A DNA stretch of 63,461 nt, the filler included, from Craspedostauros australis (taxonomy: Eukaryota), in assembly GCA_030167865.1 (NCBI GenBank). It is 16 parts of 16 records of this genome, joined end to end, with 100 filler letters (N's around TTAATTAATTAA, not from the genome) between each part and the next. Parts side by side here need not be neighbours in the genome. Positions count along the whole stretch, not along the records: positions 43,653 to 49,310 come from JALAGF010000098.1; 15 more parts are not named here. One strand, 5' to 3'. The notes beneath the pieces are model-generated. The model was not told the origin of the DNA. It did not search any database and saw only the letters and a list, made by a program, of their open reading frames with translations. This document shows, piece by piece, positions 9,268-54,641 of this stretch; the stretch's first letter is position 1; each line of letters starts with the position of its first letter. Position numbers and translations under genes: made by a program.

Positions 9268-9367
9268 NNNNNNNNNNNNNNNNNNNNNNNNNNNNNNNNN
9301 NNNNNNNNNNNTTAATTAATTAANNNNNNNNNNNNNNNNNNNNNNNNNNNNNNNNNNNNNNNNNNNN
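9268..9367. other. Artificial contig-joining linker (N44-TTAATTAATTAA-N44), first of 15
   Basis: The same 100-nt linker with stops in all six frames also occurs at 11423-11522, 24325-24424, 26961-27060, 30912-31011, 41261-41360, 43553-43652, 49311-49410, 50958-51057, 52463-52562, 54642-54741, 56395-56494, 57818-57917, 60353-60452 and 62197-62296. ORFs are cut at these points. Confidence 0.98.
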
Positions 9368-11422
9368 GTCCTTGTCACCAGCGAACTCGCTGTCGGTGTA
9401 CACCACAATCTTCCATGCATCGTTCTCCAAGGGTTTCGGTCTCATCTTCAGGCCGTACTCCCTCGTATCCGACACGAACTTCATGACTCTCAGCATCTCC
9501 TTGTACGCTGCGGCCGTTGGTCCGTCCAACACCTTGGTCAGTTCTCGCACTGCATTGGCGATGTCGGGTCTTGAGTGTTTCACCAGGTACAGCAGCATCC
9601 CCACTCCGCTTCGGTAGTTGCTGTGTCGCTGCTTGTCGACCTTTGGTGAGTCACTCTCTCTCTGGATGCCTTGTCCTGGCGTCCCTGGTGTGCCGTATCG
9701 TTGCAGCTTCATCACATCGTCCTTGAAAGTGCTGACGATGTTGTTGATGATGTGTGGTTGGTTCACCCAGCAATTGGTCTCGTCATGGTTGAAGTTGATC
9801 TTGCAACTGAGGTAGTCTTCGAGATCTTCCTCCACCTTGATACCGAATCACTTTGCCTTGATGTCCCCCACGAGGTCCTTCAGCTCCTGTTCATCCCCGA
9901 TGCACAGGCAGTCGTCGACGTAGGTTCCGATCAGTAGCATTCCCCCTTCCTGATTCCGAATCAGGAGGCATGGATCCACCTTGCTCTGTCTAAATCCCAT
10001 TTCGATCAGGATGTCGACCAGCTTCTTGTTCCATTGCCTGGCGCTCTGCACGAGCCCATAGATCGTCTTCTTGAGCAGTAAGCATTCATCGGCCTCATGC
10101 CTCATGCCTTTCGGGCATTGCATGTAGATCTCCTCTTCGAGATCCCCATGCAAGAACGCTGTCTCGAAGTCGATGATGATNCAGTCCATTCGAAGAAGCA
10201 TCTTCATGGTTAGCATCACTCGGTAGGTNGCGTCGTGGATCACNGGTGCNTGATGCGCTGAGAAGTCGACTCCTGCAATCTGGGAATACCCACATGCAAC
10301 CAATCGGGCGCGGAATACGCCGTTCCTCTTCTCCTTGAACACCCACTTGGTCTTCACGCATCGTCGGTTGTCTGGCATCTCGCTCTTCTTGATCTTCTGC
10401 CATACTCCTCTTCTGGCCATGTCAGTGAACTCCTTGTTGATGGCTCCACGCCACTTCTCTCTCTTCTCGGGATCAGCATGATCCCAGCACTCCTCGAACG
10501 TCGTTGAATCCAACATCACAGCCGTGTTGGCTTGTTCGGACCATTCACCATTCCGTTCGTTCTCAACATCCTGACTCGCAGCGATGAAGTCGATAAGTCT
10601 CATCCTCCCTTGGGTAGTATCGATCATCATGCCGGCGACGTCCCTGTTGAACATCGACCCATCTGTGTGGAAGCTGGGTCCTCCAGTAGCCGCGGGGACT
10701 ATCATCGTCTCCTGCGCAGTGTCGTAGCCATCCTCATCCCCTGATGCTGATGCTTCGCCTGCCTCCGATTCCGAATCCGATTCTGATTCTCGTTCCCTTT
10801 CCTCTTGGGGAACCGGTGAGTTGTTATAGCCAGCCAGGCTACTCACCATTCTCGGTACGCGTGCCAATGGTCTCATGGGAGTGCGTGCATTCGATTGCTC
10901 GGTAGCCAAATCGATCTGCCCCGCACGGTCGTTGTCCCTTCCGGTTTCATCGTCCTTATCGTTGATCGATGGTTCTTCCCCTTGGGTAGGTAGTAAATCG
11001 TCTTACTCGTGAGTGGTGTCGTCTGTGTCTCTTGTTGTGTGTCCGGCTCTTCCGCTCTTCTCTGCGACGCCGATCTTCGCGCTCCTTGCGATGTTCGAGC
11101 TTCGCCCCCAAGTCACTCTCTTTCTCTGGAATGCATCTCCAGTGTCAGAGTCGTCGTCTTCCAGATCATGTATTATCGATCTGTTGGCATTCTCAACACC
11201 CTTGAACTGCCCATACGACTGGTTCATCCATGTCACGTCTCGTGTGATTAGGATTCTTGCCGTTGCGAGGTTCATCATTCGGTATACACCGCTCGCATGT
11301 GACTGCCCGTATCCGACGAACATCGCAGGCTTGGACCAATCGTCCAGTTTCGCCTTGATCACTCGGCCTCCGATGAACACCATGCCAATCTCGCCGAACA
11401 AACGCAGTCCGTCCACGTATGT
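9368..11422 (-). mobile_element. Ty1/copia (CoDi-like) LTR retrotransposon pol fragment: integrase C-terminal region, reverse transcriptase (RVT_2) and start of RNase H; disrupted
   Basis: Motifs FGEIGMV...KLDD.SKPAMFVGY, KWVFKEKRNGVFRARLVACGYSQ, DFETAFLHGDLEEEIYM, KTIYGLVQSARQW, YVDD, YRSGVGMLLYL..HSRPDIA and YTDSEFAGD. All lie in one frame broken by TAA (11003-11005) and TGA (9848-9850). Confidence 0.95.
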
Positions 11423-13809: not shown

Positions 13810-16654
13810 TCAATTGTGGAACTTCTTATCGATCGACGCGTAATCCTTCAGCAATTGGCATGGTTCGAATTGATGCCCGTGCTTATCGGCCAGTCGGTTC
13901 ATCTTGTCCACGAAATTGCCGACGCCTTGTTGATCAATGTAGCGGAAGGGTCCGCCTCGGAACGGCGCGAAGCCAGTTCCGAAGACCATTCCGATATCCC
14001 CGACCGTCGGGTTGGCGATGATCTCGTCCTCGAGACATTTGGCAGCCTCGTTGACGAGACGGGTGACGAGTCGATCTTGCATATCTGCCATTGACAGATC
14101 GAGCTTGGTATCCACAAACTGGTTGACGTAGGCCTTCGCTTCGTTGTTGATGGTCTTCTTCTTTCCATTGTACGTGTAGAATCCCTGCCCTGACTTCTTT
14201 CCCAACCATCCTTTCTCGATCATCTTGCTCATCAAACCGACGTCTCCGCCGTCCATCCTGGAACCCAGGTCTGCCTTGGACAGGAAGGATGCCACGTGAG
14301 ATGTGACATCGATGCCAACCTCGTCAGCTAGCGTGATTGGACCAACGGGCATACCGAACTTGACCATCGATCGGTCGAGATCCTCGAGTCCTGCGCCATC
14401 CTTGAGCAATGCCGAGACCTCCACAAGGAATGGGCCCAGGCATCTGTTGACGTAGAAGCCGGGAACATCCTTGACGAAGATGCAAGTTTTGCCCTGCTTC
14501 ATGCCAACCTGCAAGGCGGCCGCTTTGGCCGCATCCGAGGTTCCCTCGTGCGGGATGATCTCCAGCAACGGCATCTTCGGTACAGGTGAGAAGTAGTGCA
14601 TACCGATGACATTCTGCGGACGCCGGCTTCCGGCAGCAATGTCACGGATGGGGATGGCCGATGTATTGGTGGCGAACACGCAGTGGTCACCAGTGATTTC
14701 TTCCACGTTGGCAAGGAGATCTTTCTTCACTTGGAGATCTTCGAACACAGCCTCGATCACGAGATCGGTGTTCTCGAAGTGCCGGTGCCACGACGGATTC
14801 TGGTCGGAAAGGCCGACCAGATTGGATGCGTTGATGTTGCGCTCGAACATCGTCATCCTCTTCCGCTTCTTCTTCTGGTCCCAGCTCTTGTGGACGTGCG
14901 ACATCCCCCTGGCGACGGACTCGTCATTGCGATCTTTCAAAAGGACGTTGTACCCTCTCTCAGCCGACACCTGAGCAATGCCAGCTCCCATCTGCAAGTG
15001 ACATCGACGAAGCGGGTTGGAGTGGAATTGATCAGAAGGAAAAGAAGCGGAACGAAAAGAAGCAAAGTAAAAGATCAACAGAGAAGGAATGCCCGTGAGT
15101 GATAGACCATGGAAGAGGATGAACATGAGCAAAGCACGAAAGGGGAAGCGATTTCTTTGTAGGGGTCAAAGAGGCTGCAACGTGCGTACTCGTATTGCAG
15201 ACATGTGGCAAGAATATGGCTGACAGCACAGCAGTGTATCTCCACATGATAAATTCACAGCGCCATTCCAAAATCCACCATCCTCCCAATTCATTTGGAT
15301 ACACCCAATTGCATATCATACGTACCAATCCAGCTCCCATCACCGCCACCTGCTGCACCTTGATATCTCCCGTGTCGCCGAAATCGTGCTTCTTCAGTTG
15401 ATTCATGCCATCGAAGATCCCGATCAAGGATTCTGACTCGGGGGTGGCAGCCAGATTTGCGAATTGCTTCCGTTCGTTGGTGTACTTATCTTTCGGATGT
15501 TCCAGTCCGTACTTCACGCACTGGATGATGGCACCCGGAGAGGGGTAGTTGCCTTGGGTGTTCTTCTTGACCATCTTCTCCACCTGATTCCAAATCAGCT
15601 TGCGTCCCAAGCTGGTGTCCTCGAGAGCTCGGTTCATCCAGGATTTGGGCTTGCGCTTCGGCTTGAGTTTGCCCGTTGCCAAATCGAGCGCACTTTGGAT
15701 CGTGACGCTCTCCAGAGATTGGGGTGCGACGACGGCATCCACCAACCCCATCTTCTTGGCCTTTGGTGCTCGCACCTCCTTGCCTGTCAGCATCATGTCC
15801 ATGGCGTTTTGCAGACCCACGAGCGGATGCAGATTCTGCGTGCCGCCGAACCCGGGCAACAGGCCCAGCTTGACTTCCGGCAGACCAAGCTTGACCTTGT
15901 CGGAGTCCGAGCACACTCGGTAGTCGCACCAAAGCGCCCACTCCAAGCCACCGCCGAGGGCGGGTCCGTCGATGCCGCATACCAGCGGCACCCCCTTGGA
16001 TTTCATGCGTTGGAAGAATGTCAGGCTGTCTTCGATGATCGTGACCAGGTCCTGCTTGTCCTCGACGGCTTGGAGATCGAAGATGTCGGCCCCGGCAATG
16101 AACATGTTGGGCTTGGCCGAAAGGAAGACGACGGCCTTGATGTCTTCGTTGGAGTGGATTTCTGCCTCCCACATCACCTTCGCCTCATCCGCCATGGCGA
16201 AGCTGATGGTGTTCACGCTCTTACCGGAGCAGTCGATGCGAACCACCGCCACGCCATCGGGGGTGATCTCGACGTTCTGGAAGAATTCATACTTCCGATC
16301 AGGCGTGGATTTGAAGCTGGGCGTCGCGTCTGCCGTGCTCGCCGTCTTCGCACTTGTATCTTCTTCGATAGCAGCAGTCGCAGCGGTGGAATGCATTCGC
16401 GACGAGTGGTCATGTGAGATTTGCTGTTGACGGGTCGCATAGTTGCTCAAAGAAGTTTCAAAGCAGGGGACCATGCCTTTCGCGCGATGGTTGCCGGTGA
16501 GTAACGGGGCATTTTGGAGCCCGAGCATGTTGCTCTGGCCGATGTGACCGACGCTGCCAAACGAACAACGGAGGTTCTGAGCATGGCGTGATCTCTGCAG
16601 GGTGAGAGCCGCCCTGGAGGGGAGTCGTTGGCCCGTCTTCAAAACTCGCTGCAT
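13810..16654 (-). CDS. HADHA: Mitochondrial trifunctional enzyme alpha subunit (enoyl-CoA hydratase / 3-hydroxyacyl-CoA dehydrogenase); exons 16654-15326 and 14991-13810
   Basis: Crotonase motifs FIAGADI, GPALGGGLE and LGLPEVKLGLLPGFGGTQ. A GT-AG intron at 15325-14992 restores the Rossmann motif VMGAGL|MGAGIA. HAD motifs VIEAVFED, FATNTS, GMHYFSPV and DVPGFYVNR. The N-terminus is Arg-rich and transit-peptide-like. Confidence 0.95.
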
Positions 16655-43552: not shown

Positions 43553-44617
43553 NNNNNNNNNNNNNNNNNNNNNNNNNNNNNNNNNNNNNNNNNNNNTTAA
43601 TTAATTAANNNNNNNNNNNNNNNNNNNNNNNNNNNNNNNNNNNNNNNNNNNNTGCGGATTCCATATCTGCAAAGAAAATTGGGGTATCTACCATGGAAGG
43701 TGTTGAAGTAAGGTAAAACATAATTTCAGTGGTTCCCAACGATAGCATTAGTAATGAAGGTACCGATTTAGTTGTTTACGTAGGCTGCGGTAGGACAAAC
43801 GCGTTCAAAATTTAACACGGGCCGAAAAAAAAGGATATAATGAACGCGTTGGACCCGGGTCGTTAAGGGATAGAATACTATACTATACTCTCGCCGGATA
43901 CTTGCACGAGTGGCTCGTACGCGCACGCAGCACACAACAGAGTATTATTATAGTCGTAATTGATCGTACCAAACCATTACGAATAGGCAGACTCACACCA
44001 AGAAACATAGTCGTACGTCAGGTAGATCGCACTTGCCAGCGCCAGGGAGCTGTCTGGATCCCAAAACGCCGCCTCCCCTGTATCGGCATTCTAATGCCAA
44101 TGGTATGGTACCACAGCATACAGAAAACACACTCGTACCCCAGCATCAACACGGGCCTGCGCCTCTCCAGAGTGTGCCATACGAGCACGAGCACGAGCAC
44201 GAGCACAAGTACACTCCCCGCTCACTCGACTAATTGATCGACTGATCGATTGACTGCCCCACCACTCGCAGAGAGACACAGACGGTGGGACCCTCATCAC
44301 AGATCGCGCCTCATCCAACTCGTGGACTACCTCTTGCGTCTCCACATCCTCGTATAACACCCGCCCCGCTCCAACAGCAGCAGACACAATTGCACACAAC
44401 TCGTTCGATCTACGACTGGAGTGGTCTCACGAGGCAAAGGTGCCAGGATACGGGTACGAGCACGGGCACGGAAAAGCCACACCAAATCCTTGGCCACGAA
44501 ATCGAAGCCAACTTGGCGAACGAAAGGACAAGAAAGGTCGCATCGTGGCCGCTCCCAACACAAGCAACAGCCCAGAGAGCAAGAGCTTCAAGAGCAAAGG
44601 ACGACGAAAGAACGGCG

Positions 44618-47563
44618 ATGGCCTCAGTGGTGGCAACCGCCAACACAGCGACGACCATGGCGCCGATTCGCTGGGATGACTGCATCATCACCATCGCGTA
44701 CTTCTCCATCCCAGTGCAGATCCTCGTCAGTCTCTACAAATACCCGCGGTTCGCAGCGATGCCCATCCACATCGTGGGTCTGCTGGTGCTGTTTGCCCTG
44801 TTCATCTTCCTCTGCGGCGCTGGCCATCTCCTGCGATGCTTGGGCATGACGGGGACCTTCCAGTTCCAGATCGTCAACTGCTGCACGGCGATCATCAGCC
44901 TCATGACGGCAATCTACCTCGTTCCACTCGTACCCAGCGTTATGAGCGAGCTCGATCGACGTCTGCAGGAGCTGGTGGAGCTCAACCGTGAAACGGAAGC
45001 CTCCAAGCGCAAGCTCATGACATTCATGGCCTTTCTTTGTCACGAGATTCGCAACCCGCTCTTTGCCATCACTTCCAGCATCTCCTTTCTGGAGGATGTT
45101 GTGCACGAAGACGATGATGACGATGCTATTCATCATGCTGACACTGACGCTGCCAACGTCAATGTCAACGGTCATGCTCAGAGCAATGATCAGTCCCACG
45201 ATGGAGCGGCAGCAGCAACTGTATCTCATCCAACCAATGGCAGAAGTCAGAGGCAGGGCGACAATGCGGATGGCAATGCGGACGGAAATGCGGACGGCAA
45301 TGGGGCCTCTGATCCAAAGCAGCAGCAACATCAATATCAACATCAATATCAGCATCAACAGCATCATCAGCCACAGCACGAGAGAACCATCAACTGGTCC
45401 AACGATCAGGATCAAGCGCTGCTCAGCATCACGCAGTCCGCCAATCTCATGCTTCGGTTAGTCAATGATGTACTCGATATTTCAAAACTGGAGTCCGGAA
45501 AGCTGCAGCTCGAGGAGCACGAATTTGACACAGACCAGATCGTGCACGGCATCGCATCCACCATGAATGACATCGTCTCATCATCGCCAACGCCAACGCC
45601 CAATGAAGATACTTCAGCAACATCAAACAACAACAGCGACGAAATCGACAAGTCGCGAACGAAGAAAAATGTCACCTTTGCGTCACGGATACACCCAACC
45701 GTGCCGCGGACAATCGTGGCTGATTCTGTTCGGATACTTCAAGTCGTTTACAACCTCCTCTCCAACGCCAAGAAATTCACCAACGAGGGTAGCATCCAGC
45801 TGGACGTGCAGGTCATGGACTACAACGAAGCCCTGGCGTTCAACAAGGTCACCATGCCCGATGATGCAGATGGCGATCACACCAACGAAGGCTTCAAGAC
45901 GGAACTTCGCAGAATGTCCTCGACCTCACAGGCCGGCACCAGCGACACCTCGCCTCCGGGACATCGTCCGCCCTCCACACAACGACGCACCTCCATGTTT
46001 TCCATGTTTTCTCTCACCAGCTCGTTCCGGCAGGCGAACCAGCGACCATCGCTGTCCTCCCATGAAGAGGAAGACTTGCTGCAGCAATTTCATCAACCTC
46101 ATGCGCAGCTGCCTCCACGACAGCAGAAGCCACAGCACCAGCACCAGGCGAAGCCATACTCGCAGCAACAAACGGAAACGCAAACGCAACCACGAGCGGA
46201 TCTGCGGCGAACTTCCATGGAATCCGGTTTTTCGTTACCATCTAACTTCGCGGTAGATTTGGAAGCTGGCGGCGCCTCGTCGCTGCTGCAACAACAACAG
46301 CATCGAGTCAGCGTCGCCCATGATGACGAACATAACAGCAGCCCATCGATGAATCTCTCGCAGGTTCACTCTCCCATCAATGATCTCACTACGGACAACC
46401 ACCCCAACGACATTACCGTCCTAAAGATCACTGTCAAGGACACTGGCTGCGGCATTCCGACGGAGCGATTACAACGCATCTTTGAACCCTACTCACAGGC
46501 GAAACTCTCCGACTATCGCAAACACGGCGGGACGGGACTCGGATTGGCCATCATCGCCAAGCTCATTCGATTGATGAACGGTTCCATCGAGGTCACCAGC
46601 CAGCTCCATTTGGGATCGCAGTTCACCGTCTACCTGCCCGTCAAGGTCGGCGCCAACACCACCAACGCGCCCACAGCGTCCCTGCAACCACACATCACTC
46701 GATTTCAAGATCTGCTCTCGTCTTCCAATCGAGAACTGGACGTCTTTTCATCCCCCATCGCATCCAACCAACCGTCGGTGGAGATGGGCCGGATCTCACC
46801 AACCATCACAACGCCCTTGGTGCAAGGCAAGCCACATCCTGACTTTGGCAGCGGCAGCACGAAACCAGAAGCAAAATTACTTGCAAACGGTGATGATGCA
46901 AATGCCATCGACGAGAAGAAGATTTGCTGTGACGAGAGATCTATCCTGCCTTGGCCAGAACCGACCGTCACCTCGGAAACTAAAAATCCCGTCGCCGAAG
47001 AACACACTCGAAAGACGACAACTGATCAGGATGACGCGCGAGTAGTCACACTGACGATCGCGGCGACAAAAACGACAAAGGCAAAAGACAAACTACCGAC
47101 AACAGCAACGGCAACCAAGCGCAAATCCAAATTCCATTCCTTCTCCTTCCCGCACAACGAGAACGCCGTCCTCATCGTAGACGACAACGCGGTCAATCGC
47201 AAGATCCTCACCCGCATGCTCCAGCAGTTCGGGTTGCAATACGGACAGGCAAAGCACGGTCTGGACGCTGTGCAGCAAATGAAGCAATCTCGCAACTTCA
47301 CTGGGGATTCCCATGACATCAACTACGGCCTCATCTTCATGGACCTCTCCATGCCTATAATGGATGGCTGCGAGGCGATTCGGCAAATTCGTAACCAGCT
47401 GAACATTCTGGACATTCCCATCGTGGCATTGACGGCCAATGCACTGGAACAAGGACGAGACGGCGCCTTGCTGGCAGGTGCGACAGAATTCGTCACGAAA
47501 CCCATCTTGAGGCCGGACTTGCACAAGAAGTGCACGCTGCATTTGGGTGGTGGCAGCGTGTGA
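44618..47563 (+). CDS. Ethylene-receptor-like hybrid histidine kinase: 3-TM ethylene-binding domain, HisKA, HATPase_c and receiver; no GAF
   Basis: N-terminal DCIITIAYFSIP / FALFIFLCGAGH / TAIISLMTAIYLVPLVP. H-box FLCHEIRNPL, N-box QVVYNLLSNAKKFT, G1 VKDTGCGI, G2 GGTGLGLAI. Receiver LIVDDNAVN...FMDLSMPIMDG...ALTANA...VTKP. The first ATG is at 44618 (or 44657); the GTG at 44285 is unlikely as a eukaryotic start. Confidence 0.93.
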   Translation: MASVVATANTATTMAPIRWDDCIITIAYFSIPVQILVSLYKYPRFAAMPIHIVGLLVLFALFIFLCGAGHLLRCLGMTGTFQFQIVNCCTAIISLMTAIYLVPLVPSVMSELDRRLQELVELNRETEASKRKLMTFMAFLCHEIRNPLFAITSSISFLEDVVHEDDDDDAIHHADTDAANVNVNGHAQSNDQSHDGAAAATVSHPTNGRSQRQGDNADGNADGNADGNGASDPKQQQHQYQHQYQHQQHHQPQHERTINWSNDQDQALLSITQSANLMLRLVNDVLDISKLESGKLQLEEHEFDTDQIVHGIASTMNDIVSSSPTPTPNEDTSATSNNNSDEIDKSRTKKNVTFASRIHPTVPRTIVADSVRILQVVYNLLSNAKKFTNEGSIQLDVQVMDYNEALAFNKVTMPDDADGDHTNEGFKTELRRMSSTSQAGTSDTSPPGHRPPSTQRRTSMFSMFSLTSSFRQANQRPSLSSHEEEDLLQQFHQPHAQLPPRQQKPQHQHQAKPYSQQQTETQTQPRADLRRTSMESGFSLPSNFAVDLEAGGASSLLQQQQHRVSVAHDDEHNSSPSMNLSQVHSPINDLTTDNHPNDITVLKITVKDTGCGIPTERLQRIFEPYSQAKLSDYRKHGGTGLGLAIIAKLIRLMNGSIEVTSQLHLGSQFTVYLPVKVGANTTNAPTASLQPHITRFQDLLSSSNRELDVFSSPIASNQPSVEMGRISPTITTPLVQGKPHPDFGSGSTKPEAKLLANGDDANAIDEKKICCDERSILPWPEPTVTSETKNPVAEEHTRKTTTDQDDARVVTLTIAATKTTKAKDKLPTTATATKRKSKFHSFSFPHNENAVLIVDDNAVNRKILTRMLQQFGLQYGQAKHGLDAVQQMKQSRNFTGDSHDINYGLIFMDLSMPIMDGCEAIRQIRNQLNILDIPIVALTANALEQGRDGALLAGATEFVTKPILRPDLHKKCTLHLGGGSV

Positions 47564-49410
47564 AGCGAGCTGCCAAGGTCAGCAAACACGGGGCTACTCA
47601 CTGTAGAGTACGCGAATTGAGAGATTGTTCTTGTGTGCTCTACTATGGATTATAATATTACGGAGGAGAGTATGCATTTGCGCTCGGATACGAAGTCAGA
47701 CGCGGGCCTGTCAGTTCGGACACACCGCCAGGATTGGTGGAGTGGATGATCCTCCCCCAGCAGGTAGTTATGTACAGATAAGGCGCCTGTCATGACACAA
47801 TCATACCAATGTTCATTCGATACCGCACTCCTCGACCCGCAACAGAATCGTACGACTGATTGTCGGAGGACCGCCAATGAATCTGCCCGTGCTGCTGAGA
47901 GAAAAGTTGGCGTGGAGTTCTTGAAGAATTAGGTCGGTAGCGCTGTGGCTGTTGGGACATGAGAGGAAATTACAAAATCGCTCACTATTCATATACCGAC
48001 ACACGCTTTTTTATGGTTTCGATCATTGCCAACACAGACCTCTACACGTTTCAGACAGACAAACCAAACAGACATACATTCATGGTCCAACACACAGACA
48101 TACGCTCCTTGCGGATTCATTCAGACATACCAACTACACAAACATCCACGATCAAGACACATCCCTGTGCTTGGGCAAAGGTTTCACGGGAACGCCTCTT
48201 TTCCCGCCTTGCCAGATGCGCAACGACATGCGTTGGTTCCACTGAACACGGGTGACTTTTTGTTTTGTGTCTTCGTTTTCGCGTCACCGAGATGGGCTCG
48301 TGCCGTTTTGGTGCCAGGAGAACTGTTTTCCCTCTTTGTATTTCTGCGAAAGGCTTATCATGTACTGGAACGTGTTCTGAAGGACACTTGGCACGCCATC
48401 GCAGCAGCACTCAACCATGCACAGCTTTAAACACTTGTCGCACGAAACTTCGCCGACGTCGCTTTCATTGCTCTTTCCATTCGTGGTGATTCACCCAAGG
48501 ACATTTCTTCGCTTTCGTCTGACTTCGTGTGAGCTATTCGGCGTTGGATTTTTGTTTGATGGTACCGACTCCTCGTAGTTTTCGCTACGTCGCGCATCGC
48601 CTGTTGGTGGTCATTCCCGCATCATGGCAGGCGCGACTGCGCAAATAGTCATTTATGACACCGTTGTTCCCGCCGGGCACGTGCCTGAGCCCTTCACCAG
48701 TTAAAATGATGACCCTGCGAAGCCGCCGAACTGCCTGCCATGTCTTGCTCACGAAATCACTTCGTGCTGGTGCTAAATCCGAACACATGGCAAGGCGAAG
48801 ACCCGCATGGTCCGCGATTCCAAGACACGAAATAACGCGAACACACATCTACAGCAATCTTTCATCCAGATAGACGATGACAAGCAACCATGCAGGGTTG
48901 GATGTTTCGCTTCTCTCCTCTTCTCTTGGCACAAGTGCGACCGGAACCAAGAACAATTTCATGTGACGCTGATTATATGGTAGGTGGCCAGCAGTACAAG
49001 AGGTCAACATGCAAAGGCCAACAACTCTCTCTCCCCCTCTCTGCTTGGGTCATTCCAGTTCTTAGACTCGAGTGCCAAGACCAAGTACGTTTGCAGCACT
49101 TTCTCATAGACTCCACTTTGACAGACTCACTTGGGCAAAATGGATTGTTGCGTCGGCGCATAAGTGACTGATTTTGTGTCCTTTGTTATGTTGTCGTGGC
49201 CGGGCAAACTGAGAAAAGACCCAGTGTCCATTCGATCTGCCACCGAGCTCCGCAATACCCAAGCCCCTCCCAAGATCAACCCTTCTTGCCTGACATTGCA
49301 TACCGGCTTANNNNNNNNNNNNNNNNNNNNNNNNNNNNNNNNNNNNNNNNNNNNTTAATTAATTAANNNNNNNNNNNNNNNNNNNNNNNNNNNNNNNNNN
49401 NNNNNNNNNN

Positions 49411-52182: not shown

Positions 52183-52562
52183 GGTTGCTTGGGCGCGTAG
52201 TGGCTTGGTTGTTTGATTTTGACGCTTGCGATGTGTTGTTGCTTGTGTGTTGTTTGCGTTTGCGTTGGTCACCTCAAACTTTTTATGAGTGTTGGATGAT
52301 CGGAATAGAAGGTGTAGTCCGATGATGCATGTGATGAAGCATGTGGGGCAAGTGTTGCCACTGCCCTTGACGATGCTACATCAGATCATGATGGTGATGA
52401 TCATGATGATGGTGGTGATCCTGCTGCGTTGGTGTTCAACAGGACACGGGCACCATCGTTGTNNNNNNNNNNNNNNNNNNNNNNNNNNNNNNNNNNNNNN
52501 NNNNNNTTAATTAATTAANNNNNNNNNNNNNNNNNNNNNNNNNNNNNNNNNNNNNNNNNNNN

Positions 52563-54641
52563 TGAACCGTTACTCGCTGATTCGCCTGGAGCCATTGGAA
52601 CAACAAAAGCATCTTCGACCCCACGTCGCTTTTCTCTGTGATGAAGTAACTCCAGCAGTAGTCNNNNNNNNNNNNNNNNNNNNNNNNNNNNNNNNNNNNN
52701 NNNNNNNNNNNNNNNNNNNNNNNNNNNNNNNNNNNNNNNNNNNNNNNNNNNNNNNNNNNNNNNNNNNNNNNNNNNNNNNNNNNNNNNNNNNNNNNNNNNC
52801 GCGATTTCCCAATCGCGCAGTCAACACACACGTTCAGTTTTCCTGTCACGTTCCAGCCGTACCTCCCTGCTGTTCGAGAGATGGTGTACGCATCAACGTG
52901 GCCTAACATTTTATGAATAGTGTTGATGTCGACTGGTGCGTCGGTTGACACACCAACATGAGCTTGGTCGTCGGCCTTGGCATTGCTCATCATGTTCACT
53001 CCGCAAACGAAGCCACTCTGGGTCGCCATGATGCGGTCGAAGCTGATGCGCACGCTGCCCTTTTTCAAGCTGATCACGATGCCGCGGTTACTAATGTCGA
53101 ACCCATTTTCGAGAGCTTTATTGATGCTCAGCAGGTTCACCCACAGCTTCGGCACGTACTTCACTGACTTGAGTACGACGATGGATGTCCTTCCATTCTT
53201 CTGCATGACGGTCATGCGCTTGTCGCCCACCTTGGTTGCCTTGAGGAAGCGTCCGTTTCCGATCTTCACCGATTGTTCGGAGACTTGGACGTTGGTCATC
53301 CCCTTGTCACAATTGGTGAGATGGCACGATGCACCTGAGTCGCCCAGCCAGGTGTTGCTTTCGTAGTGGTCTGGTGCGATGGCGGATCTCTTTGCATCGA
53401 CGTCGTTCACATTCCCGATCATCAGAGCTACCTCGTGGTGATCGCCGTGTTCCGTGTAGAGCGGTAACACTGAGAGCGCTGGGTTCGAGTCTCGAACCCC
53501 TTTGTTGCTGCTGTGATGCATCCAGAGGATGGAGTGCGAGGCATGGAGGGTCATGCAGGAGATCAGATTGCTAGGGAAGGGTTGGCGATAGTGAGCTTCC
53601 AAGCTGTTGTTGATGTTGCAGGGGTTGCGACAGACGGCCATGGTGGTGATCATGCCGATGTCATGCAGCTTGAAGTACACGGAGCGTGGTTCAATCTGTG
53701 GAGTATGGTCCCCCGTGTGAGTATCCACGGCGTCGTAGCACAATAGGGCGAGTTCGTTTCGCACTGCGTTGGCTGGGAGCACGTTGCTCAACGACGCTCG
53801 GATGGCGTAGCGGAGGGAACCGGTCCTTGCGAGCAGGGCGCGGCGCTCCGCGCGTTCTGCATCGTTGCTCGGCACATCCCCGCGTGGGTCGTTGTGGAGC
53901 TGGATGAAGAACGGGACTTGGGGGCATTCTACGCACCATGCGTAGAGTGGTCCTCGCTTGAGGCACAAAGGGCACCAGGCCGTGTTGGTGGTGAGCCGTG
54001 CAGCGTTCTCGATCATGCGCTCCACAAGCGTGTGCTCAGGGGCGAAGTTGTACACCGGGCGGGGTGGTCGTCTTCCTTGGTTGGCTTCCCCCATGTCATC
54101 GTCGACATCTTCCGTGTCGGTGGCCCCTTCGTTGGTGAGGCTTGCGTCGTAGTAGGACTCTTGTCCTTGGTTGGAGTTGCTCATCTTGTTGTTGACGTTG
54201 TGTGGTCTCAAGGAAACAATGGGAGAAGTGTCAGTCTGTTCGACGATGGATGCAAAGGCGACGTCTTCCATTACGTTGGAGTCGGATTGATTGTTGCTTC
54301 CGATGTCGCGTGTTTTTCCCTCGTCTGTGTTCACGGATAAGTTGGTCACATTTTCCAATTCGTTCGTGTTTCCCGAGGTGGGGACACAAATTAGCTCATC
54401 TGTCATCATGAGAGCCACGTCGTTGTTTCCTTCCATTCCATCGGTCGCCACGTTGGCCGAGTCTGCCTCCTTCATAGCTGCTTTCAGCTTGAAGCACTGT
54501 AGGATCTTGTGTCCCTTCTTACCGCAGTACTTACACTCCCCATTGAACTTGGGCTTACTGTTGTTGTCTCCTTGACCACTCTTCTTGTTCTTGCCGTTGC
54601 CTTTCTTGGGGGCGGAGCGGCAGTCTGCCTTCTTGTGGCCG
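52563..54641 (-). mobile_element. Ty1/copia (CoDi-like) gag-pol fragment: zinc knuckles, protease, pre-integrase HHCC region and start of integrase core
   Basis: One open frame with GHKKADC and CKYCGKKGHKILQC knuckles, WLGDSGASCHLT protease, VKYVPKLWVNLLS, HKMLGH...CVDCAIGK and DYCWSYF. Internal N gap at 52664-52799. Confidence 0.95.

What the first reader, a model, noticed from the sequence alone, without database searches (positions are those of the whole stretch)
44657..44945. ETR1-type ethylene-binding domain on a diatom hybrid histidine kinase
Seen: three hydrophobic helices DCIITIAYFSIPVQIL, FALFIFLCGAGHLL and NCCTAIISLMTAIYLVPLVP, directly upstream of a complete kinase and receiver. 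Established: Arabidopsis ETR1 binds ethylene through Cu(I) using D25, Y32, I35, P36, I62, C65 and H69 (DFFIAIAYFSIP; FGAFIVLCGATH). All seven equivalents are present at the same spacing (Cys 44813-44815, His 44825-44827), as are the helix-3 T/S/T/L/P positions; ETR1 K91 aligns to Asn. Inference: a copper-dependent ethylene or small-gas receptor with an intact His-Asp relay in an alga. Such homologs have been noted in some non-plant eukaryotes, but I know of no demonstrated diatom ethylene pathway.
Basis: partly seen in the sequence, partly recalled or inferred. Interest (0 to 1): 0.8.

Follow-up and report, generated by a model that had tools for sequence, protein, structure and literature searches.

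The report
Diatom ethylene-receptor-like hybrid histidine kinase
This is a real diatom gene for a membrane sensor kinase whose first three membrane helices belong to the plant ethylene-receptor binding-domain family, a kind of gene already reported in diatoms in 2018 but never tested for ethylene binding.

Summary
Window 44618..47563 (+) is one 981-aa open frame. Pfam finds ETR1_N (residues 20-109, 59.4 bits, cut-off 27), a split HisKA, HATPase_c and a receiver. Cys66 and His70 lie at the stated coordinates. D21, Y28, I31, P32, I63, C66 and H70 sit in columns that are nearly invariant across 245 aligned binding-domain rows.

It is not new as a kind. Kabbara et al. 2018 described four Fistulifera solaris kinases with the same three-helix/HisKA/HATPase/receiver layout and no GAF. 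This gene is a new member, at most 69% identical in the binding domain to any protein found.

Three things were added here:
- The helix-3 Lys that ETR1 needs for normal ethylene binding is Asn throughout a well-supported diatom clade.
- Helix 3 is predicted to run as one helix into the phospho-accepting His142, at a linker length fixed in heptad steps.
- Centric diatoms carry the same domain fused to a nucleotide cyclase.

Ligand binding is untested, and no paper listed by four searches shows a diatom ethylene response. Interest is moderate.

The parts
44618..47563 (+). Whole ORF, 981 aa (P0001), stop codon 47561-47563. The upstream in-frame stop is at 44243 and there is no ATG between it and 44618.
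44657..44659 (+). Alternative start Met14 (context ACCATGG). Many aligned homologues start 3-5 residues before the conserved Asp, so Met14 may be the true start.
44675..44944 (+). ETR1_N ethylene-binding-type domain, residues 20-109
   Evidence: PF25487, E 4.3e-16, 59.4 bits (cut-off 27), profile positions 9-95 of 97
44672..44740 (+). Predicted helix 1 (residues 19-41), carrying D21 (44678-44680), Y28, I31 and P32
44765..44839 (+). Predicted helix 2 (residues 50-74), carrying I63 and the putative Cu(I) ligands Cys66 (44813-44815) and His70 (44825-44827)
   Evidence: role of the equivalent ETR1 residues
44858..45094 (+). Predicted helix 3, continuous with the signalling helix and DHp helix 1 (residues 81-159). 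It contains Asn87 (44876-44878, the column of ETR1 Lys91), T90, S94, T97, L101, P106 and the phospho-accepting His142 (45041-45043).
   Evidence: one helix over model residues 68-146, mean pLDDT 92.1
45098..45391 (+). Low-complexity insert 1 (residues 161-258) in the DHp hairpin loop. It is unique to this gene among 58 motif-complete homologues. GC3 is 0.45 against 0.72-0.81 in the domains, and an in-frame intron is not excluded.
45401..45499 (+). HisKA second half (residues 262-294, DHp helix 2)
45749..45781 (+). N-box of the ATPase domain (residues 378-388)
45815..46411 (+). Low-complexity insert 2 (residues 400-598) between the N-box and G1-box. Homologues have a shorter insert at the same place.
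46418..46645 (+). HATPase_c C-terminal part (residues 601-676) with G1 (608-613), F (621-625) and G2 (637-643) boxes
47168..47530 (+). Receiver domain (residues 851-971), with D855/D856, phospho-accepting D909 (47342-47344), T939 and K961

Best explanation
This is a nuclear diatom gene, apparently a single exon, for a membrane-anchored hybrid histidine kinase. Its N-terminal three-helix domain is a genuine member of the ethylene-binding-domain family (Pfam ETR1_N). It belongs to the diatom clade first reported in Fistulifera solaris. Shown here: family membership, the conserved residues, an intact kinase and receiver, the absence of a GAF domain, and a predicted continuous helix from membrane helix 3 to the phospho-accepting His142. 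Inferred by analogy with ETR1, SynEtr1 and AzoEtr1: Cys66 and His70 on helix 2, oriented by Asp21 on helix 1, hold Cu(I), which binds ethylene or a similar small unsaturated ligand. Ligand occupancy then changes the Asp21 to helix-3 contact (Asn87 here, Lys in ETR1), and the shift of helix 3 passes down the rigid helix to alter autophosphorylation of His142. The phosphoryl group would go to Asp909 of the fused receiver, and from there presumably to an HPt protein and a response regulator. Because the helix-3 Lys is Asn across the clade, affinity for ethylene is probably lower than in plant receptors, or coupling is tuned differently.
For: The Pfam ETR1_N match is 59.4 bits against a cut-off of 27, with HisKA, HATPase_c and Response_reg on the same chain. 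The residues in the columns of D21, Y28, I31, P32, I63, C66 and H70 are nearly invariant over 245 rows. The catalytic and receiver motifs are invariant or nearly so in a 15-sequence full-length alignment and were located in the sequence. AlphaFold2 of residues 14-160 with 33 sequences gives mean pLDDT 92.1, three membrane helices, and one unbroken helix from residue 81 to 159 through His142. Among 91 diatom HK-type rows, the distance from the Pro at the end of helix 3 to the His is 36 residues in 59 rows and 29, one heptad less, in 14. In the 41 other rows with a His-box the distance is 55 or more, and above 170 in 38 of them. Relatives are transcribed: 4 of the 11 members of the P0024 cluster are MMETSP transcripts, and P0107 comes from a Minutocellus transcriptome. 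Literature: Cys65 and His69 coordinate copper, and Asp25 and Lys91 form a polar bridge that couples binding to helix 3. The first 130 residues of a bacterial homologue suffice for saturable ethylene binding. Ethylene forms photochemically in natural waters at concentrations to which cyanobacteria respond.
Against: No binding or copper data exist for any diatom protein. A 2020 review states that no functional studies had been done, and a 2022 paper says it is unknown whether these proteins sense ethylene. The column of ETR1 Lys91 is Asn. In ETR1, losing the basic side chain cut ethylene binding to about 6% (K91M) and 1% (K91A); Asn itself was not tested there. The roughly 97-residue insert in the DHp loop and the roughly 200-residue insert in the ATPase domain are the longest among 58 homologues and could impair the kinase. 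No whole genome is held, so HPt, response regulators and a copper-delivering ATPase could not be looked for. No ETR1 sequence was available for a direct alignment.
Confidence: 0.55

Rival explanations
1. The fold and the copper site are kept, but the natural ligand is not ethylene. The clade-wide Lys-to-Asn change would then mark retuning to another small molecule that Cu(I) can bind (another alkene, CO, or a thiol or other soft ligand), or the domain would report copper or redox state itself.
For: Asn, with a few Ser or His, replaces the basic residue in all 106 tips of the diatom clade (SH-like support 1.0, branch 0.76, midpoint root). The 73 tips outside the clade carry K, R, Q or H. The 95 domain rows from 80 prokaryotic loci hold K 76, R 9, Q 9, N 1 and 1 gap. 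The basic character of Lys91 is important for ethylene binding in ETR1.
Against: All other positions tied to ethylene binding are unchanged. Asn can still hydrogen-bond to Asp. Non-basic Gln and His variants also occur among cyanobacterial-type domains. No alternative ligand has been shown for any member of the family in the papers read.
Confidence: 0.25
2. The domain no longer senses anything. It would serve only as a membrane anchor and dimerisation module for a kinase regulated elsewhere, or this particular copy, burdened by long low-complexity inserts, is a decaying paralogue.
For: This is the longest of 58 motif-complete homologues: H-box to DHp helix 2 is 142 residues against a median of 45, and N-box to G1 is 229 against a median of 95.5. 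Insert 1 has atypical codon use, GC3 0.45. No RNA holder of the gene was listed.
Against: The frame is open for 981 codons and every catalytic motif is intact. The binding-site columns are nearly invariant across the clade, which argues for selection on the site and not merely on hydrophobic helices. The heptad-fixed linker argues for signal transmission.
Confidence: 0.12
3. The gene is bacterial contamination or a very recent horizontal transfer into the assembly.
For: The family is most diverse in cyanobacteria and other bacteria: 6797 representatives at E up to 0.001, with the named relatives.
Against: The best prokaryotic matches are only 33-41% identical, whereas diatom-type proteins reach 52-69% in the binding domain. 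The neighbouring ORFs carry eukaryote-type Pfam families: Copia-type reverse transcriptase (RVT_2), ankyrin repeats, the HA domain and a P450. The long Gln/His/Asn/Asp-rich inserts are also eukaryote-like.
Confidence: 0.02

Closest known systems
Fistulifera solaris FsolaHK12-15 (GAX13824, GAX13825, GAX21919, GAX21918), the diatom ethylene-receptor homologues of Kabbara et al. 2018 (PMC6324907)
   Same: Both are diatom proteins with three N-terminal transmembrane helices carrying the residues needed for ethylene perception, followed by HisKA, HATPase and receiver with no GAF. This is drawn as '*** H A R' in the paper's Supplemental Figure S4 and Table S1.
   Different: The F. solaris sequences were not identified by name among the hits, so identity to them was not measured. 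The nearest database proteins are at most 69% identical in the binding domain. This copy has much longer low-complexity inserts than any of 57 other homologues.
Arabidopsis thaliana ETR1
   Same: Both have the ETR1_N family domain with Asp in helix 1, Cys and His four residues apart in helix 2, and the conserved T/S/T/L/P pattern in helix 3. Both have a histidine-kinase core and a C-terminal receiver. The HATPase region matches the solved ETR1 catalytic domain 4pl9_A at E 8e-15.
   Different: There is no GAF domain between sensor and kinase (ETR1 is drawn '*** GAF H A R'). Asn stands in place of Lys91. There is no Cys before helix 1, where I recall ETR1 has a disulfide-forming pair. The CTR1/EIN2 output could not be examined.
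Cyanobacterial EBD-GAF(-PAS) histidine kinases (SynEtr1/slr1212 type; Anabaena, Nodularia, Microcoleus, Geitlerinema proteins)
   Same: These are the nearest group outside the diatom clade. They have the same binding-site columns, and several are hybrid kinases with receivers.
   Different: They are 33-41% identical. GAF and PAS domains lie between sensor and kinase, so the His-box is more than 170 residues from helix 3. The Lys91 column holds K, R or Q.
Azospirillum brasilense AzoEtr1 (PMC11819568)
   Same: It is a microbial two-component sensor whose first 130 residues alone show saturable ethylene binding. It has equivalent Asp35, Cys75 and His79. It is the practical template for testing the diatom domain.
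   Different: It is bacterial, keeps the helix-3 Lys (K98), and its response regulator is encoded next to it. No two-component partner was found among the window's larger ORFs.

Membership tests
Ethylene-binding domain family (Pfam ETR1_N, PF25487) | Profile score above the curated gathering threshold | tested here: met
   59.4 bits against 27, E 4.3e-16, residues 20-109 on profile positions 9-95 of 97
Ethylene-binding domain family (Pfam ETR1_N, PF25487) | Three transmembrane helices at the N-terminus | tested here: met
   Hydropathy scan; AlphaFold2 helices at residues 19-41, 50-74 and 81 onward, mean pLDDT 92.1
Ethylene-binding domain family (Pfam ETR1_N, PF25487) | Cys and His one helical turn apart in helix 2 (copper ligands; ETR1 C65 and H69) | tested here: met
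   C66 and H70. These columns hold C in 242 and H in 241 of 245 rows.
Ethylene-binding domain family (Pfam ETR1_N, PF25487) | Conserved Asp in helix 1 (ETR1 D25) | tested here: met
   D21. The column holds D 211 and N 10 of 245 rows.
Ethylene-binding domain family (Pfam ETR1_N, PF25487) | The remaining residues of the seven required for ethylene binding in ETR1 (Y32, I35, P36, I62; this list is recalled or taken from the finding, as Wang 2006 is not held) | tested here: met
   Y28, I31, P32 and I63 have the same spacings from D21 and C66 as the ETR1 numbers imply. The columns hold Y 228, I 226, P 226 and I 226 of 245 rows. No direct alignment to ETR1 was possible.
Ethylene-binding domain family (Pfam ETR1_N, PF25487) | Highly conserved basic residue in helix 3 bridging to the Asp (ETR1 K91) | tested here: not met
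   Asn87. The column is three residues before the near-invariant Thr90 column (T in 236 of 245 rows). It holds K 49 and R 32 outside the diatom clade and N 129 inside it.
Ethylene-binding domain family (Pfam ETR1_N, PF25487) | Saturable Cu(I)-dependent ethylene binding | not testable with these tools
   Needs expression and 14C-ethylene and copper assays
Plant ethylene receptors (ETR1/ERS1/ETR2/EIN4/ERS2) | GAF domain between the binding domain and the kinase | tested here: not met
   There is no GAF hit at E up to 1. His142 lies 36 residues after the end of helix 3. ETR1 is drawn with a GAF.
Plant ethylene receptors (ETR1/ERS1/ETR2/EIN4/ERS2) | Signalling through CTR1 and EIN2 | not testable with these tools
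   No whole genome is held for the window
Diatom EBD hybrid kinases (FsolaHK12-15 type) | Architecture of three TM helices, HisKA, HATPase and receiver, without GAF | tested here: met
   one search compared. The named diatom homologues P0002, P0014 and P0055 and the unnamed sister P0013 have the same architecture.
Diatom EBD hybrid kinases (FsolaHK12-15 type) | Falls inside the diatom clade in a tree of binding domains | tested here: met
   FastTree of 179 domains gives a clade of 106 tips with support 1.0. P0001 is sister to P0013 with support 0.73. The F. solaris proteins themselves were not identified among the tips.
Hybrid histidine kinase (two-component phosphorelay) | H-box His; N, G1, F and G2 boxes; receiver Asp-Asp, Asp and Lys | tested here: met
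   H142, N379/N383, D608-G612, F622, G637-L643, D855/D856, D909 and K961. HisKA, HATPase_c and Response_reg all score above their Pfam cut-offs.

The most novel reading that the evidence does not exclude
Diatoms carry their own lineage of Cu(I)-based gas or olefin sensors. The Asp-Lys bridge of plant and bacterial ethylene receptors has been replaced clade-wide by Asp-Asn, retuning affinity or ligand, for example to ambient photochemically formed ethylene at higher concentrations or to another unsaturated volatile. The same sensor is wired to two different outputs. In pennates it feeds a heptad-locked His-Asp phosphorelay, as in this gene. In centric diatoms it feeds cyclic-nucleotide synthesis, through the ETR1_N-cyclase fusions. 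That would make gas sensing a general and so far unstudied input to diatom physiology.
Probability: 0.2. Interest if true: 0.7.

Novelty: new member of a known kind. Interest (0 to 1): 0.35.

Why it matters
Whether ethylene is a signal outside plants and a few bacteria is an open question, and diatoms are major marine primary producers. This gene family is a defined, short (about 110 residues) and easily expressed test object. The natural Lys-to-Asn change falls exactly at the residue that a 2023 study proposed couples ethylene binding to receptor output. The diatom domain is therefore also a natural experiment on that model. The gene itself adds only one more member to a class published in 2018.

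Tried and rejected
- Expression: the look-up of sequencing runs listed no RNA holder. It listed one run of uncertain kind holding 0.08 of the sampled words. Laying it gave a single 267-base contig, identical to 47369-47635, across the stop codon. This says nothing about the gene model or expression.
- Homodimer: complex prediction on residues 14-160 in two copies scored 0.23 against a mark of 0.32. The tool's verdict was 'no answer'.
- Solved structures: there was no sequence match to the binding domain at E up to 10. Foldseek against the PDB gave 0 matches at E up to 0.001. VIA-align wide gave a best Z of 8.2 with generic helical bundles, below the tool's stated noise level for helical models.
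- Obtaining Arabidopsis ETR1 for a direct alignment: three protein searches returned only diatom-type and cyanobacterial-type proteins in their listed rows. Wang et al. 2006 is not held.
- Whole-genome questions (paralogues, HPt, response regulators, copper ATPase): no genome is held.
- ESM Atlas: the top named clusters are ETR1_N, but at scores of 0.87, 0.85 and 0.85, under the 0.9 that the tool treats as more than a lead.
- NCBIfam: only generic hybrid-kinase models matched (BarA, LuxQ, RcsC), all far below their cut-offs.
- The bacterial promoter/terminator scan of the 3' flank is meaningless for a eukaryotic gene.
- The search of earlier findings returned nothing for this genome.
- A paper search for the binding-domain-cyclase fusion was unspecific.
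- Rejected idea: a tandem second copy, as the adjacent accession numbers in F. solaris might suggest. Only one binding domain is present in the window in six frames.
Full report
**What is there.** Window 44618..47563 (+) is a single open frame of 981 codons. The nearest upstream in-frame stop is at 44243 and there is no earlier ATG. Pfam finds four domains above their gathering scores:
- ETR1_N (PF25487): residues 20-109, E 4.3e-16, 59.4 bits against 27.
- HisKA: two pieces, the better one at 262-294.
- HATPase_c: best piece at 601-676.
- Response_reg: residues 851-971.

No GAF or PAS domain and no other membrane-sensor family appears at E up to 1. NCBIfam gives only generic hybrid-kinase models far below their cut-offs. 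Matches to solved structures all fall in the kinase and receiver. They include the Arabidopsis ETR1 catalytic domain 4pl9_A at E 8e-15. The binding domain alone matches no solved chain at E up to 10.

**The observation.** A hydropathy scan shows three hydrophobic stretches. This set was chosen by similarity to the diatom domain, so it is biased. The key columns hold:

| P0001 residue | Commonest residue (rows of 245) | Other |
|---|---|---|
| D21 | D 211 | N 10 |
| Y28 | Y 228 | |
| I31 | I 226 | |
| P32 | P 226 | |
| I63 | I 226 | V 13 |
| C66 | C 242 | |
| H70 | H 241 | |
| T90 | T 236 | |
| S94 | S 238 | |
| T97 | T 232 | |
| L101 | L 216 | |
| P106 | P 237 | |

Most of the remaining rows are gaps. 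The papers I read name ETR1 D25, C65, H69 and K91, and speak of seven residues required for binding. That the other four are Y32, I35, P36 and I62 is recalled or taken from the finding, because Wang et al. 2006 is not held. The spacings D21-Y28-I31-P32 and I63-C66-H70 equal those implied by the ETR1 numbers. I could not obtain an ETR1 sequence from any tool, so this equivalence is indirect.

**Organism and relatives.** The closest proteins are 52-69% identical in the binding domain. All have the same architecture: ETR1_N, HisKA and HATPase_c, usually with a receiver. The named ones are from Nitzschia inconspicua, Seminavis robusta and Mayamaea pseudoterrestris. A profile search of 1.84 billion representatives finds 6797 proteins at E up to 0.001, 2904 at up to 1e-10, and only 34 at up to 1e-30. 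In a scan of prokaryotic genomes, 320 of 376 matched stretches encode relatives. The best 80 are only 33-41% identical; they come from cyanobacteria such as Microcoleus, Limnothrix and Anabaena and from some proteobacteria. The window's other large ORFs carry eukaryote-type families: Copia-type RVT_2, ankyrin repeats, the HA domain, P450 and beta-oxidation enzymes. None is a two-component partner. Only one binding domain is present in the window. Contamination or recent transfer is therefore very unlikely.

**It is a known kind.** Kabbara et al. 2018 (PMC6324907; passages and supplement read) reported four F. solaris kinases, FsolaHK12-15. [quoted passage not shown] Their Supplemental Figure S4 and Table S1 draw these proteins as '*** H A R', against '*** GAF H A R' for Arabidopsis ETR1. 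Later reviews repeat the finding. They state that no functional study exists (2020) or that sensing is unknown (2022). Four literature searches listed no paper showing an ethylene response or binding in a diatom. I read only the listings and the passages cited.

**What this analysis adds.**

The helix-3 position. The column three residues before the near-invariant Thr90 column (T in 236 of 245 rows) holds N in 129 rows, K in 49, R in 32, Q in 17, H in 9 and S in 4. All the Asn rows belong to diatom-type proteins. For a FastTree tree I dropped proteins with two domain rows and rows with more than 12 gaps, leaving 179 domains. In that tree the Asn-type sequences fall in one clade of 106 tips (98 N, 4 S, 4 H; no K or R). 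The clade has SH-like support 1.0 and a branch of 0.76 under midpoint rooting. In the 80 named prokaryotic loci, the 95 rows of this column hold K 76, R 9, Q 9 and N 1 (Floridaenema), with one gap.

Azhar et al. 2023 (PMC10266040; passages read) report that Lys91 is highly conserved and co-evolves with Asp25. They propose that it forms the polar bridge carrying the binding signal to helix 3. Copper binding was unaffected in K91R, K91M and K91A. Ethylene binding was 63%, about 6% and 1% of wild type respectively. Asn was not tested. The diatom clade thus departs at exactly the residue thought to tune binding and output.

Direct coupling. AlphaFold2 of residues 14-160 with a 33-sequence alignment gives mean pLDDT 92.1 and pTM 0.68. 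It predicts helices at 19-41, 43-47 and 50-74, and a single helix 81-159 that runs from membrane helix 3 through His142. Among 91 diatom HK-type rows, the distance from the Pro ending helix 3 to the His is:

| Distance (residues) | Rows |
|---|---|
| 36 | 59 |
| 29 | 14 |
| 35 | 8 |
| 33 | 5 |
| 37 | 3 |
| 31 | 1 |
| 34 | 1 |

The two commonest lengths differ by one heptad. In the 41 other rows with a His-box the distance is 55 or more, and above 170 in 38 of them. This fits rigid helical transmission from the sensor to the phospho-acceptor without an intervening GAF domain.

A second output. Centric-diatom proteins (Cyclotella cryptica, C. cf. meneghiniana, Cyclostephanos tholiformis and unnamed records) join the same Asn-type domain to a class III nucleotide cyclase (Pfam confirmed for 5 of 5 tested). 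Twelve of these are in the tree. Their common ancestor spans 16 tips with support 0.85.

**Peculiarities of this copy.** Among 58 homologues that have every kinase motif, this is the longest (981 aa against a median of 650.5):

| Interval | This gene (residues) | Median |
|---|---|---|
| H-box to DHp helix 2 | 142 | 45 |
| N-box to G1 | 229 | 95.5 |
| G2 to receiver | 210 | 137 |

The next largest H-box to DHp helix 2 distance is 50, so this insert is unique to this gene. The inserts are rich in Asp, Asn, Gly, Gln and His. Insert 1 (45098-45391) has GC3 0.45 against 0.72-0.81 in the conserved domains. It lacks stops in three of six frames and is flanked by in-frame GT..AG pairs, for example 45098-45382. 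A spliced in-frame intron cannot be excluded, although the splice-site contexts look weak to me. Either way the frame and the domains are kept. The start may be Met14 rather than Met1: many homologues begin 3-5 residues before the conserved Asp, and Met14 has an ACCATGG context.

**Mechanism.** Shown: family membership, site conservation, an intact His-Asp relay and the predicted continuous helix. Inferred by analogy with receptors that have been tested (Arabidopsis ETR1, Synechocystis SynEtr1, Azospirillum AzoEtr1): Cu(I) is held by Cys66 and His70 with Asp21, and a small unsaturated ligand binds it. The Asp21 to helix-3 contact changes, and this shifts kinase activity at His142. The phosphoryl group passes to Asp909 and then to unidentified HPt and response-regulator proteins. 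Ethylene forms photochemically from dissolved organic matter in natural waters at levels to which cyanobacteria respond, which gives an ecological rationale. Family members are transcribed in cultured diatoms (MMETSP records). I put the homology at about 0.97. I put the full functional reading at about 0.55, because of the Asn and the absence of any binding data.

**Verdict.** As a kind it is already in print, so this is a new member of a known kind. The clade-wide Lys-to-Asn change, the heptad-locked linker and the cyclase fusions are modest new points that make the open question, whether diatoms sense ethylene, sharper and directly testable.

Noticed in passing
Proteins P0076, P0078, P0079, P0082, P0084 (not in the window): Centric-diatom proteins (Cyclotella cryptica, C. 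cf. meneghiniana and unnamed records) fuse the same Asn-type ETR1_N domain to an adenylate/guanylate cyclase catalytic domain (PF00211). Their binding domains form a subclade with support 0.85. Two unspecific literature searches listed no paper naming this fusion.
   Followed up: partly
window 45098-45391, 45815-46411, 46685-47152: Three long low-complexity inserts make this the longest of 58 motif-complete homologues. The first is unique to this gene, has GC3 0.45 against 0.72-0.81 in the domains, and could be an in-frame intron.
   Followed up: partly
Diatom HK-type homologues: The distance from the end of helix 3 to the phospho-accepting His is 36 residues in 59 of 91 rows and 29 residues in 14. 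That is a one-heptad step, suggesting a register constraint on the signalling helix.
   Followed up: yes
L067:1501-1809 (Floridaenema evergladense): This is the only one of 80 prokaryotic loci with Asn in the Lys91 column. The 95 rows otherwise hold K 76, R 9 and Q 9, with one gap.
   Followed up: no
window 9848-10876 (-) and 52511-54475 (-): These ORFs have Copia-type reverse transcriptase (RVT_2) and Pol beta-barrel domains, so they are retrotransposon remnants flanking the region.
   Followed up: no
window 13810-15126 (-) and 15032-16654 (-): Two overlapping ORFs carry 3-hydroxyacyl-CoA dehydrogenase and enoyl-CoA hydratase domains. This is probably one multifunctional beta-oxidation gene interrupted by an intron or frame change.
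   Followed up: no
window, many places (e.g. 9268-9311 and 9324-9367, 43553-43596 and 43609-43652): Paired runs of 44 N recur through the window, 1646 N in all. They look like masking or scaffolding gaps and touch neighbouring ORFs but not this gene.
   Followed up: no
L019, L021, L027 and 13 other Microcoleus-type loci: Sixteen of the 80 prokaryotic loci gave more than one binding-domain row in the six-frame search. These may be frame breaks or partial duplicates; I did not examine them.
   Followed up: no
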